From the human T2T-CHM13v2.0 reference genome, Homo sapiens, in NCBI RefSeq assembly GCF_009914755.1, contig NC_060937.1: a stretch of DNA of 64,000 nucleotides, one strand, 5' to 3'. This document shows positions 50,108-53,530 of the stretch, piece after piece. The number at the start of each line of letters is the position of its first letter. Position 1 is the stretch's first letter. The notes beneath the pieces are model-generated. The model was not told the DNA's origin, did not search any database, and was given only the letters and a program-made list of their open reading frames with translations. The translations under genes and the position numbers were made by a program.

Positions 50108-50503
50108 TACTGTTTCTGCTTTCTGTCTCTCATATTGAAAGAGACTTTCTTTTAAATGATCATATTCATTCATTAGCTTCTTATTTTTCTCTTCTAGCAT
50201 GAGGTCTTTCTACTCTCAATAAAGCCTCTTTGGATATTAATTACTATCTCTTTATGATCCTCTTTCTGATGAACATCAACTAGTTGCTGTTCAAGCCATG
50301 GATTTTCACGTTGGAGTTGACATATCCTCTCTTCTACACAGTTCCACTTTCCAGTGGATTTACTGACTTTAGCTTCTGCACTTTGATACATCTCTTTCAT
50401 TTCCTTTATTTGCTGCTGTGTTTGGCTTAGGTCATTTTGTACAGTTTCTAAAGCCAATGACTTTTTTCTGAGAGTATCTCTTGTCTTACAGAACTTATCT
50501 TTT
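50108..50503 (-). pseudogene. ANKRD20A: 3' half of the large coiled-coil exon (...LALETVQNDLSQ...), with inferred 4-bp frameshift near 50205
   Basis: ORF 50194..50457; donor GTA|gtaagta at 50107. Read-through gives VVSIKENKYFQTSRKKI* (stop 50057-50059), matching the recalled ANKRD20A C-terminus. Confidence 0.92.
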
Positions 50504-52499
50504 TTTTTCTTGTACCTTTTTTTTTTAATGTTTATTGATCATTCTTGGGTGTTTCTCGGAGAGGGGGATGTGGCAGGGTCATAGGATAATAGTGGAGAGA
50601 AGGTCAGCAGATAAACACGTCAACAAAGGTCTCTGGTTTTCCTAGGCAGTGTTTGTGTCCCTGGGTACTTGAGATTAGGGAGTGGTGATGACTCTTAAGG
50701 AGCATGCTGCTTTCAAGCATCTGTTTAACAAAGCACATCTTGCACCGCCCTTAATCCATTTAACCCTGAGTTGACACAGCACGTGTTTCAGAGAGCTCGG
50801 GGTTGGGGGTAAGGTTATAGATTAACAGCATCCCAAGGCAGAAGAATTTTTCTAAGTACAGAACAAAATGGAGTCTGCTATGTCTACTTCTTTCTACACA
50901 GACACAGTAACAATCTGATCTCTCTTTCTTTTCCCCACATTTCCCCCTTTTCTTTTCAACAAAACCGCCATCGTCATCATGGCCCGTTCTCGATGGTCGC
51001 TGTCTCTTCGGAGCTGTTGAGTACACCTCCCAGATGGGGTGGCGGGGTAGAGGCGCTCCTCACTTCCCAGACAGGGCGGCCAGGCAGAGGCACTCCTCAC
51101 TTCCCAAATGGGGTGGCCGGGCAGAGGCGCTTCCCATTTCCCAGATGGGGCGGCCGGGCAGAGGCGCTCCCCACTTCCCAGATGATGGGCGGCCGGGCAG
51201 AGGCGCTCCCCCCATCCCAGATGGGGCGGGCGGGCAGAGGCACTCCTCACCTCCCAGACGGAGCGGCCGGGCAGATGCACTCCCCACTTCCCAGACGGGG
51301 CGGCCGGGCAGAGACGCTCCTCACTTCCCAGACGGGGCAGCTGCCGGGCAGAGGCGCTCCTCACTTCCCAGATGGGGAGGCCAGGCAGAGGCACTCCTCA
51401 CCTCCCAGACGGGGTGGCGGCCGGGCAGAGGCACTCCCCACTTCCCAGACAGGGTGGCAGCTGGGCAGAGGCGCTCCTCACATCCCAGACCGGGCAGCCG
51501 GGCAGAGGTGCTCCTCACTTCCCAGACAATGGGCAGCCGGGCAGAGGCGCTCCTCAATTCCCAGACAGGGCAGCCGGGCAGAGATGCTCCTCACCTCCCA
51601 GATGGGGCGGCCGGGCAGAGGCGCTCCTCACTTCCTCCCAGATGGGGCGGCCGGGCAGAGGTGCTCCTCACTTCCCAGACGGGGCAGCCGGGCAGAGACG
51701 CTCCTCACCTCCCAGACGGGGCGGCCGGGCAGAGACACTCCTCACCTCCCAGACAGGGCGGCTGGGCAGAGGTGCTCCTCAATTCCCAGCCAGGGCAGCT
51801 GGGCAGATGCTCCTCACATCCCAGACAGGGCAGCTGGGCAGAGGCGCTCCTCACTTCCTAGACCAGGTGGCGGCCGGGCAGAAGCATTCCTCACTTCCCA
51901 GACGGGGCGGCTGGGCAGAGGCGCTCCCCACTTCCAAGACAGGGCAGCCGGGCAGAGGCGCTCCTCACTTCCCAGACAGGGCGGCCAGGCAGAGGCGCTC
52001 CCCACATCCCAGACGGGGCGGCCGGGCAGAGGCGCTCCTCACTTCCCAGATGGGGCGGCCGGGCAGAGGCGCTCCTCACTTCCCATTTGGGGCAGCCAGG
52101 CAGAGGCGCTCCTCACTTCCCAGACAGGGCAGCCAGGCAGAGGCACTCCTCACTTCCCATTTGGGGCAGCTGGGCAGAGGCGCTCCTAACTTCCCATTTG
52201 GGGCAGCAGGGCAGAGGCGCTCCTCACATCCCAAACAATGGGCGGCCAGACAGAGATGCTCCTCACTTCCCAGACGGGGTGGCGGCCAGGCAGAGGCACT
52301 CCTCACTTCCCAGACGGGTCGGCCGGGCAGAGGGGCTCCTCACATCCCAGACTATGGGCGGCCAGGCAGAGACGCTGCTCACTTCCTAGACAGGGTGGCG
52401 GGTGGGCAGAGGCTGTAATCTTAGCACTTTGGGAGGCCAAGGCAGGCGGCTGGGAGGTGAAGGTTGTAGCAAGCAGAGATCCCACCACTGCACTCCAGC
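50504..52499 (-). mobile_element. SVA retrotransposon (old, SVA_A-like): truncated Alu-like domain, VNTR, SINE-R and poly(A); no CCCTCT hexamer head
   Basis: Poly-T at 50504-50526, tttatt signal at 50531-50536, SINE-R at ~50530-51020, ~37-40-bp VNTR 'gggcagaggcgctcctcacttcccagacggggcggcc' at ~51025-52410, Alu-like end at 52411-52499. TSD c(a/g)gaacttatctttt at 50489-50503 and 52992-53006. Confidence 0.97.
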
Positions 52500-52991
52500 C
52501 TGCTGTCTTTGTCTGTTCTTTCATTTATGAGAGGAATCCATCGACTTGTTACCTTATCAATAGAATGCTTGTTGTTAACGGCATACACTATACAGACGAC
52601 ATTAGCCTGAGATATTTCTTGATGAAGTTGTTCATCACTCTGTTCTGCTTCTGAGTAATCTATAATGTGTGTTGGAACTCTCTCTGGGGTGACATCAGCT
52701 GGAATGGTGATTTCTTCTGCCCGGGGAGGAACCTCTTCTGGAAATTCTTCACTGACCAGACATAATCAGTGACGTCTTCCCAACTCTAGGTTCTCCTACC
52801 AGCAGGATCCGCACGTCTTTCTTCATGTCGGCGGCTCTCGGGGGATGGCCTCCGCCCACATGCATGGAGTGGACTCCTCTCACCAGGAGCACCCACCCCA
52901 AGGCGCCCCCTCAGTTGCTTCCCCGCAAGAGAGCCGGGACAGCACCAGCTCTGCTTCCTCCAGCCCAGCAGGCTGCAGTGGCGGCGGCGGC
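52500..52991 (-). pseudogene. RHOT1: Processed RHOT1 (MIRO1) 5' fragment: 5'UTR plus first ~110 codons, forming the 5' end of the SVA insertion
   Basis: ATG at 52826 (gccgccgacATG) reads [23 protein letters not shown]. After a 2-bp deletion near 52758 it continues [86 protein letters not shown]. Intronless. The ORF track missed it because of the frameshift. Confidence 0.96.
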
Positions 52992-53530
52992 CGGAACTTA
53001 TCTTTTAAGGTATTGAATTTAATTTGCATTTTAGAAAGTTGTTCAGTAAGAAACTAATTCTTATCTTCTACTTCGGAAATATCAGAACTCATTTTTACTT
53101 GTTCAGAAACATCTTGTGTTCTCTCTAAAGCAAGTTTCAGGTTTCTTTCTGTTTTCACATTTTCACTGTGTTTACTTATAGCAGCAGCCAGTCTAGACTG
53201 ATAAGATTCAATTTCAGCTTCCAGTTTTTTCTTGCTTTCTTTTTCCTTCAACAGTTCAGAATTGAGCCTTGTATTCTCAGCTTTGAGATCATTAAGCTCT
53301 TGTTGATACCGGAATGCTGTTTTTGTTATCATTTCCTCATTGAGTTTTATACACTTTTCAAGGGCAGCATTTGTTTCTTTAGCAATTTTAATGTCCTTAA
53401 GATATTTATTTTCTTTTTCCAGGTTGTCATTTTTCATTATGCATATTTCCTGTCTGAGTATAGCAATATCTGTCTTCAAAATGCAATTTTCATCCATCAG
53501 ATCTTTCATTTCTTCATGATTATGAAAATC
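52992..53530 (-). pseudogene. ANKRD20A: 5' half of the large coiled-coil exon (DFHNHEEMKDLMDENCILK...), with premature TAG at 53054-53056
   Basis: atttag|GATTTT acceptor; ORF 53054..53509. The frame continues N*FLTEQLSKMQIKFNTLKDKF up to the insertion site. Confidence 0.93.

What the first reader, a model, noticed from the sequence alone, without database searches (positions are those of the whole stretch)
50489..53006. RHOT1 (MIRO1)-SVA exon-trap chimera retrotransposed as a single unit
Seen: one 15-bp TSD encloses an intronless RHOT1 5'UTR and 327 nt of CDS, fused at ...GACAGCAG|GCTGGAGTGCAGTGG to the Alu-like domain of an SVA whose hexamer head is missing. The rebuilt empty site is cggaacttatcTTTT/AAgg, the canonical L1 endonuclease motif. 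Established: SVA Alu-like domains contain cryptic splice acceptors and can capture upstream exons. From recall, 327+2=329 nt coincides with an RHOT1 exon boundary. Inference: a transcript from the RHOT1 promoter spliced into an intronic source SVA and was copied here by L1 machinery. I recall this event and RHOT1P pseudogenes in ANKRD20A duplicons as already reported, so it is striking but probably not new.
Basis: partly seen in the sequence, partly recalled or inferred. Interest (0 to 1): 0.8.

Follow-up and report, generated by a model that had tools for sequence, protein, structure and literature searches.

The report
RHOT1–SVA exon-trap retrocopy, already described
A transcript that joined the first six exons of the mitochondrial GTPase gene RHOT1 to an SVA retrotransposon sitting in the next RHOT1 intron was copied into an ANKRD20A pseudogene and later duplicated to three chromosomes; it is a clean textbook case that is already in print.

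Summary
On the minus strand, window 50489-53006 holds one retrotransposed unit. It consists of a 15-nt target-site duplication, six precisely spliced RHOT1 exon blocks (165 nt of 5'UTR and 327 nt of CDS), an SVA lacking its hexamer and most of its Alu-like domain, and a poly(A) tail.

The fusion point is exactly the RHOT1 exon-6 donor on chr17. The following intron holds a sense-oriented SVA 2.3 kb downstream, with CCCAG immediately before the fusion-equivalent base. That SVA shares with the window copy a 22-nt SINE-R deletion and a tail motif found only three times in the 3.1-Gb genome.

Three loci (chr13, chr18, chr21) carry the same insertion with the same duplication and collinear flanks. 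Twenty-four other ANKRD20A-type paralogs have the empty site, which reads TTTT/AA on the nicked strand.

So this was exon trapping by an intronic SVA, then L1-type retrotransposition, then segmental duplication. A 4-nt overlap (GCTG) with exon 7 formally allows a template switch, but the location of the source SVA makes that very unlikely.

The event is cited in print as the "RHOT1 transduction group" (Damert 2009; Hancks 2009, cited in PMC9132208). All three loci are listed in PMC5007689 Table S3. Already known; low interest.

The parts
52992..53006 (-). 5' target-site duplication. In element sense it reads AAAAGATAAGTTCCG. Its GT at 52997-52996 is used as the splice donor by the annotated ANKRD20A9P transcript.
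52790..52991 (-). RHOT1 exon block 1: 165 nt of 5'UTR starting in a GCC repeat, then the ATG at 52826 and 37 nt of CDS. It carries a 41-nt deletion private to this copy and many CpG-to-TpG changes.
52733..52789 (-). RHOT1 exon block 2, with a private 2-nt deletion that shifts the reading frame.
52651..52732 (-). RHOT1 exon block 3
52607..52650 (-). RHOT1 exon block 4
52553..52606 (-). RHOT1 exon block 5
52500..52552 (-). RHOT1 exon block 6. It ends ...GACAGCAG exactly where the chr17 exon ends before GTATTT. The translation of blocks 2-6 is 84/86 identical to Mitochondrial Rho GTPase 1.
52414..52499 (-). [quoted passage not shown] The first four bases (GCTG, 52499-52496) also match the start of RHOT1 exon 7.
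51024..52413 (-). SVA VNTR: 36.8 units of 37 nt.
50531..51023 (-). SVA SINE-R domain, with a 22-nt deletion shared with the chr17 source SVA. AATAAA lies at 50536-50531. An AG at 50556-50555 is used as the acceptor by the annotated ANKRD20A9P transcript.
50504..50530 (-). Tail: CATT-A10-GGTACAAG-A(n). The boundary with the A-rich duplication is ambiguous by up to 4 A.
50489..50503 (-). 3' target-site duplication. In element sense it reads AAAAGATAAGTTCTG.
50108..50554 (-). Host ANKRD20A9P exon downstream of the insertion. It includes the last 51 nt of the SVA and its tail.
   Evidence: hub annotation in the finding
52998..53530 (-). Host ANKRD20A9P exon upstream of the insertion.
   Evidence: hub annotation in the finding

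Best explanation
This is one L1-mediated retrotransposition of a chimeric RNA. Transcription began at the RHOT1 promoter on chr17. Introns 1-5 were removed normally. [quoted passage not shown] The transcript was polyadenylated at the SVA's own AATAAA signal.

The RNA was inserted by target-primed reverse transcription at a TTTT/AA nick inside an exon-like stretch of an ANKRD20A-family gene copy, which created a 15-nt target-site duplication. The filled locus was then copied by segmental duplication to what are now chr13 (this window), chr18 and chr21.

Shown here: the exon structure, the junction at the donor, the presence, orientation and AG of the source SVA, the shared private markers, a single pair of duplications, the empty sites, and the three collinear copies. 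Inferred: the splicing step itself, the use of L1 proteins, and the order and dates of events.
For: - Six chr17 blocks match the RHOT1 part, with all five internal introns removed precisely.
- The last block ends CAG|GTATTT on chr17, and the chimera switches to SVA at that base.
- The next RHOT1 exon is at C17:33128526. Its translation continues Mitochondrial Rho GTPase 1 one residue after the copy ends.
- Within that intron there is a sense SVA with its own 14-nt duplication (C17:33123956 and 33126435). It reads ...GTTGCCCAG|GCCGGAGTGCAGTGG at the equivalent point.
- The SINE-R of the window copy has this SVA as its best non-self match in the genome: 97%, against 96% and 95% for the two paralogs and 93% or less for the other SVAs. 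Only 40 of 2114 candidates were scored.
- A 22-nt deletion, a TACTTAG variant and the tail motif are shared by the source and the three copies, and by 0 of 11 other SVAs aligned.
- The tail pattern is found 3 times in the genome (chr13, chr17, chr21), and the reversed control 0 times.
- There is one pair of 15-nt duplications, a terminal A-tail, no A-tract at the internal junction, and an empty site reading TTTT/AA.
- 24 of 27 paralogs that match both flanks at 92% or more are empty.
- SVA mobilisation by L1 proteins in trans is shown experimentally in PMC3287187 (title and abstract in the listing; passages).
- Retrotransposition of exon-SVA chimeric transcripts is described in PMC4859970 (passages).
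Against: - The junction is ambiguous by 4 nt, because exon 7 starts GCTGCC and the SVA side starts GCTGGAG. Sequence alone cannot separate splicing from a switch inside CAGGCTG.
- The present-day source reads GCCGG where all three copies read GCTGG, so one lineage has changed since the event.
- The 37 nt upstream of the AG are only 57% pyrimidine, so the acceptor is not obviously strong.
- Substitution distance does not single out the source. The window SINE-R is 3.9% from the source and on average 3.4% from the 11 other SVAs. The link rests on the indel, the tail and the location.
- No RNA evidence for the splice was available.
Confidence: 0.95

Rival explanations
1. Template switch during reverse transcription. 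L1 reverse transcriptase copying an SVA RNA jumped, at the 7-nt microhomology CAGGCTG, onto a fully spliced RHOT1 mRNA at the exon 6/7 boundary. This would give the same sequence without any exon 6-to-SVA splice.
For: Exon 7 begins GCTGCC, so spliced RHOT1 mRNA reads CAGGCTG across the 6/7 junction. The copies read CAGGCTG at the fusion. A template switch between an mRNA and an SVA RNA has been proposed for another SVA-linked retrocopy in PMC12593883 (passage).
Against: - The SVA that carries the copy's private deletion and unique tail lies in the very intron that follows the breakpoint exon, in sense orientation, with an AG exactly at the switch point. A switch between unlinked RNAs gives no reason for that.
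- With the present source sequence (GCCGG) the homology shrinks to CAGGC.
Confidence: 0.03
2. Two separate insertions: an SVA first, then a 5' RHOT1 processed-pseudogene fragment landing at its 5' end, or the reverse order.
For: None specific. Nested insertions are common in pericentromeric duplicons (general knowledge).
Against: - Only one pair of duplications encloses both parts. Empty paralogs have the two outer flanks separated by exactly the 15-nt target.
- There is no A-tract or second duplication at 52500|52499.
- The RHOT1 part stops at a splice donor and not at a poly(A) site.
Confidence: 0.01
3. A DNA-level event: a genomic duplication or rearrangement of the RHOT1 locus, or an unspliced read-through 5' transduction from an upstream promoter.
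For: The region is rich in segmental duplications.
Against: Five introns and the 2292 nt of intron 6 between exon 6 and the SVA acceptor are absent. The unit has a poly(A) tail and target-site duplications.
Confidence: 0.01

Closest known systems
RHOT1 SVA 5'-transduction group (Damert et al. 2009; Hancks et al. 2009), as cited in PMC9132208
   Same: This is the same object. PMC9132208 (Discussion passage) says SVA elements co-amplified with segmental duplications and names the 'RHOT1 transduction group'. PMC5007689 Table S3 lists three RHOT1-promoter/SVA-A loci on chr13 (minus), chr18 (plus) and chr21 (minus). These are the chromosomes and strands found here.
   Different: Nothing substantive. 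I could not open either 2009 paper. I therefore cannot say whether they already reported the intron-6 source element, the shared 22-nt deletion and tail, or the empty paralogs.
SVA_F1 (MAST2 exon 1 spliced into an SVA_F)
   Same: [quoted passage not shown] The hexamer and most of the Alu-like region are replaced (PMC6139936 passages; PMC12593883 passages).
   Different: - Six exons of RHOT1 are carried here instead of one MAST2 exon, and the SVA is an old SVA-A, not a human-specific F.
- SVA_F1 went on to retrotranspose to at least 84 copies. This chimera inserted once, and its 3 copies arose by segmental duplication.
- Whether the AG used is the same one (SVA_F consensus position 385 in PMC12593883) was not tested.
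Chimpanzee pt_SVA_D6 (STK40 exon 1-SVA) and the human MRPS18A-SVA transduction
   Same: These are independent cases of exon-to-SVA splicing followed by retrotransposition (PMC6139936; PMC12593883).
   Different: The genes, lineages and SVA subfamilies differ. pt_SVA_D6 became a 94-member subfamily, whereas the RHOT1 chimera shows no retrotransposed offspring in this genome.
Classical processed pseudogene
   Same: Intronless mRNA-derived sequence, target-site duplication, A-tail and an L1-type nick site.
   Different: The RHOT1 part lacks everything after exon 6 and has no 3'UTR or poly(A) of its own. The 3' end and poly(A) signal are supplied by the SVA.

Membership tests
SVA exon-trap (spliced 5' transduction) chimera | The upstream part is spliced exons of a host gene, not contiguous genomic DNA. 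| tested here: met
   Six chr17 blocks are joined at their exon ends, and five introns are absent.
SVA exon-trap (spliced 5' transduction) chimera | The gene side of the fusion ends exactly at a splice donor. | tested here: met
   chr17 reads ...GACAGCAG|GTATTT, and the copy reads ...GACAGCAG|GCTGGAG. A 4-nt overlap with exon 7 is noted.
SVA exon-trap (spliced 5' transduction) chimera | The SVA side of the fusion starts directly after an AG in the SVA. | tested here: met
   The source SVA reads GTTGCCCAG|GCCGGAGTGCAG at the equivalent base.
SVA exon-trap (spliced 5' transduction) chimera | The source SVA lies in sense orientation in the intron downstream of the donor exon. | tested here: met
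   C17:~33123970-33126434, + strand like RHOT1, between exon 6 and exon 7. Private markers are shared.
SVA exon-trap (spliced 5' transduction) chimera | The splice junction is observed in RNA. | not testable with these tools
   No expression data were available.
L1-mediated (target-primed) insertion | A single target-site duplication, a terminal A-tail and a TTTT/AA-type nick site. | tested here: met
   15-nt duplication, A-tail, and an empty site reading CTTATCTTTT/AAGG. The TTTT/AA consensus itself is recalled established knowledge.
Copies spread by segmental duplication and not by repeated retrotransposition | All copies have the same duplication, the same junction and collinear flanks. | tested here: met
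   3 of 3 copies. About 1 kb of flank on each side differs by 1.2-2.1% between copies.
SVA subfamily A | Diagnostic positions of the SVA_A consensus. | not tested
   No repeat library was at hand. The label SVA-A comes from PMC5007689 Table S3.
SVA_F1 | MAST2 exon 1 at the 5' end. | tested here: not met
   The 5' part is RHOT1: chr17 exon matches and 84/86 identity to Mitochondrial Rho GTPase 1.
Classical processed pseudogene | The copy reaches the parent mRNA's own 3' end and poly(A). | tested here: not met
   The RHOT1 part stops at the exon-6 donor. The poly(A) signal and tail belong to the SVA.

The most novel reading that the evidence does not exclude
The SVA in RHOT1 intron 6 may still be a working exon trap in living humans. 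If so, a fraction of RHOT1 pre-mRNA would still splice exon 6 to this AG and end at the SVA poly(A) signal. That transcript would encode MIRO1 residues 1-109 plus a short SVA-derived tail (26 codons before a stop in the window copy's sequence). Separately, the RHOT1 CpG-island fragment carried to chr13/18/21 may act as a promoter inside the ANKRD20A pseudogenes; PMC5007689 says trapped RHOT1 promoter sequence is transcribed in K562 cells. Nothing here tests either idea.
Probability: 0.25. Interest if true: 0.35.

Novelty: already known. Interest (0 to 1): 0.22.

Why it matters
This is an unusually complete natural record of exon shuffling by an SVA. The donor exon, the source element still in the adjacent intron, the filled site, many empty sites and later duplication are all readable in one genome. 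That makes it a good teaching and benchmarking case for calling spliced 5' transductions. It is also a reminder that RHOT1P1-3 are one event and not three. It adds little new biology, because the event and its spread with segmental duplications have been cited in print since 2009.

Tried and rejected
- **Primary papers:** Damert 2009, Hancks 2009 and the Hancks & Kazazian 2010 review are not held. What they say about RHOT1 is known to me only through citations in PMC9132208.
- **Literature searches:** a search for the RHOT1P1/2/3 names found only expression or GWAS papers that list them (listing only). 'RHOT1' with 'transduction group' found only PMC9132208. The preprint 10.1101/2020.06.07.139212 only lists RHOT1 among retrocopy parent genes.
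- **Term error:** one search failed on a badly written term and was re-sent, which added nothing on acceptors.
- **Same AG as SVA_F1?** I did not test whether the AG used here is the one that made SVA_F1 (SVA_F consensus position 385). I had no SVA consensus or identified SVA_F1 copy. Counting positions from memory suggested it may be a different AG about 50 nt upstream, but that is recall and not a result.
- **Substitution distance:** it did not identify the source. The window SINE-R is 3.9% from the source and averages 3.4% from 11 other SVAs. I rely on the shared deletion, the tail and the location.
- **81-nt query across the deletion:** this returned the three copies without a gap but did not list the chr17 source. 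The source has two further base changes there.
- I set the exon-5 end one base too far, which produced a spurious 1-nt gap in the alignment. The true exon 5 is 54 nt. In one search my pattern mis-anchored one of seven empty-site loci (C22), so 6 of 7 were read.
- **Not examined:** more distant ANKRD20A relatives (65-81% matches).
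Full report
**Observation**

Read on the minus strand, window 53006 to 50489 is a single unit. Its parts, in order, are:
- a 15-nt direct repeat (52992-53006);
- 492 nt of GC-rich and then coding-like sequence (52991-52500);
- the string GCTGGAGTGCAGTGG and about 86 nt of Alu-like sequence (52499-52414);
- a tandem array of 36.8 units of 37 nt (51024-52413);
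- about 490 nt of SINE-R ending in AATAAA (50536-50531);
- a tail reading CATT-A10-GGTACAAG-A(n);
- the same 15-mer again (50489-50503).

The two 15-mers differ at one CpG position.

**The 5' part is spliced RHOT1**

A search of the window's own genome with 52496-52991 gave six collinear blocks on contig 17, plus two further copies on contigs 21 and 18.
- The chr17 blocks are bounded by AG...GT, and the copy joins them base for base.
- I mis-set the exon-5 end by one base. The corrected lengths are 202, 57, 82, 44, 54 and 53 nt in the window.
- The translation of blocks 2-6 is 84/86 identical to PDB chains named Mitochondrial Rho GTPase 1.
- From the ATG (window 52826) to the fusion there are 327 nt in the window and 329 nt in the parent. 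The window copy has a private 2-nt deletion in exon 2 and a private 41-nt deletion in the 5'UTR, both absent from the chr18 and chr21 copies.

**The junction**

On chr17 the sixth block ends ...GACAAAGACAGCAG and is followed by GTATTT (L010). The chimera reads ...GACAAAGACAGCAG|GCTGGAGTGCAGTGG in all three copies, so the gene side ends exactly at a donor.

The next RHOT1 exon lies at C17:33128526, preceded by TTTTAG. It starts GCTGCC. Its translation continues the same PDB protein at chain residue 117, where the copy ended at 115. The first four bases after the junction (GCTG) are therefore shared by exon 7 and the SVA.

**The source SVA**

The 6.5-kb intron between those exons contains an SVA in the same orientation as RHOT1, about 2.5 kb long. 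It is flanked by its own 14-nt repeat at C17:33123956 and 33126435. At 2292 nt after exon 6 it reads ...GTTGCCCAG|GCCGGAGTGCAGTGGTGGGATCTC..., so an AG sits directly before the base where the chimera's SVA part begins.

Several lines of evidence link this SVA to the window copy:
- The window's SINE-R and tail have this element as their best non-self match in the genome: 97%, against 96% and 95% for the chr21 and chr18 copies and 93% or less for other SVAs. Only 40 of 2114 candidates were scored.
- I aligned it with the three copies and 11 other well-matching SVAs. The four share a 22-nt deletion, a TACTTAG variant and the AATAAACATT-A(n)-G(G)TACAAG-A(n) tail. None of the 11 others has any of these.
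- The tail pattern occurs three times in 3.1 Gb (chr13, chr17, chr21) and its reversed control never. The chr18 tail has mutated.

Plain substitution distance does not single out the source. It is 3.9% to the source against a mean of 3.4% to the 11 others. The present source also reads GCCGG where the copies read GCTGG.

**Insertion site and copies**

The chr13, chr18 and chr21 loci align from flank to flank through the element. They have the same 15-mer, AAAAGATAAGTTC(C/T)G, at both ends and the same junction.

Searching with each flank separately found 27 loci matching both flanks at 92% or more.
- Three are the filled loci.
- In the other 24 the two flanks lie 15 nt apart. This is exact in 23. 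In the last one a match begins at query base 9, so the spacing cannot be read exactly.
- Six empty sites that I read show ...CCTT[AAAAGATAAGTTCCG]TAAG... once each. A seventh fetched locus was mis-anchored by my script.

On the strand that primed reverse transcription, the empty site reads CTTATCTTTT/AAGG. This matches the L1 endonuclease preference TTTT/AA, which I cite from recalled established knowledge. The three filled loci are also each other's closest relatives: flanks are 97-98% identical among them against 92-95% to the others.

**Mechanism**

The simplest account has these steps:
1. RHOT1 transcription.
2. Normal removal of introns 1-5.
3. Splicing of the exon-6 donor to the AG in the intronic SVA.
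4. Polyadenylation at the SVA signal.
5. One L1-type insertion into an ANKRD20A-family copy.
6. Segmental duplication to three sites.

Background support comes from three papers:
- PMC4859970 (passages) describes the CAG of antisense Alu sequence as a strong acceptor motif and describes retrotransposition of exon-SVA chimeras.
- PMC6139936 and PMC12593883 (passages) describe the parallel MAST2, STK40 and MRPS18A cases.
- PMC3287187 shows L1 mobilises SVA in trans (listing; passages).

A template switch at CAGGCTG would give the same sequence. It offers no reason why the SVA bearing the copy's private markers should lie in the very next intron with an AG at that base, so I give it about 3%. Nested independent insertions and DNA-level events are contradicted by the single pair of duplications, the lack of an internal A-tract and the missing introns.

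**Age (rough, inferred)**
- About 1 kb of flank on each side differs by 1.2-2.1% between the three copies.
- Exons 2-6 of each copy differ from the parent at 3-4 of about 290 positions.
- Exon 1 and the SINE-R show heavy CpG decay.
- The VNTR now has 36.8 units on chr13, 51.1 on chr21 and 71.8 on chr18, against 40.8 in the source.

This points to an old, great-ape-age insertion followed fairly soon by duplication. I did not date it properly.

**Novelty**

PMC9132208 (Discussion passage) states that SVAs co-amplified with segmental duplications. It names the RHOT1 transduction group, citing Damert 2009 and Hancks 2009. PMC5007689 names RHOT1 among promoters trapped by SVAs (passage). Its Table S3 lists exactly three loci, on chr13 (minus), chr18 (plus) and chr21 (minus), each labelled SVA-A.

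The two 2009 papers and a 2010 review are not held. I cannot say how many of the details above they already contain. The finding is correct, instructive and already known.

**Side observations**

The annotated ANKRD20A9P transcript (hub table) has exons ending at 52998 and starting at 50554. The 2443 nt between them begin with GT inside the 5' duplication and end with AG in the SINE-R. The host transcript model therefore treats nearly the whole insertion as an intron.

Noticed in passing
window 50555-52997 (minus strand): The annotated ANKRD20A9P transcript NR_138091.1 splices out almost the whole RHOT1-SVA insertion. The donor GT lies inside the 5' target-site duplication (52997-52996) and the acceptor AG lies in the SINE-R (50556-50555). 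The last 51 nt of the SVA and its tail stay in the exon. In 24 paralogs the two flanks are contiguous sequence.
   Followed up: partly
window 52790-52991 and 52733-52789: The chr13 copy has a private 41-nt deletion in the RHOT1 5'UTR and a private 2-nt deletion in exon 2. The 2-nt deletion breaks the reading frame after 23 codons. The chr18 and chr21 copies lack both deletions.
   Followed up: yes
window 51024-52413; L019 3077-5009; L020 1821-4538; L016 2379-3926: The VNTR length differs between copies of the same insertion: 36.8 units on chr13, 51.1 on chr21 and 71.8 on chr18, against 40.8 in the chr17 source. The array has therefore grown or shrunk since the duplications.
   Followed up: partly
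L016 2293-2297 (C17:33124276-33124280): The present-day source SVA reads GCCGG just after the acceptor AG, where all three copies read GCTGG. One lineage changed after the event. With GCCGG the homology to exon 7 is shorter.
   Followed up: partly
L016-L018 (C17:33121984-33151983): The 30 kb downstream of RHOT1 exon 6 holds many antisense-Alu-type ...CCCAG|GCTGGAGTGCAG motifs of the same form as the SVA acceptor, including two between exon 6 and the SVA. Why the SVA site was the one captured is not explained. The SVA's own poly(A) signal may be the reason.
   Followed up: no
window 50505-51020 compared with flanks 49500-50488 and 53007-54000: Between the three duplicated copies the SINE-R differs by 4.9-6.6%, or 3.9-5.1% with current CpG sites masked. 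The roughly 1-kb flanks differ by only 1.2-2.1%. The GC-rich insert has diverged two to three times faster than its surroundings.
   Followed up: no
window 52414-52504 (minus strand): Read in the RHOT1 frame, the fusion continues for 26 codons into the Alu-like remnant before a TAA. The original chimeric RNA could have encoded MIRO1 residues 1-109 plus a short tail.
   Followed up: no
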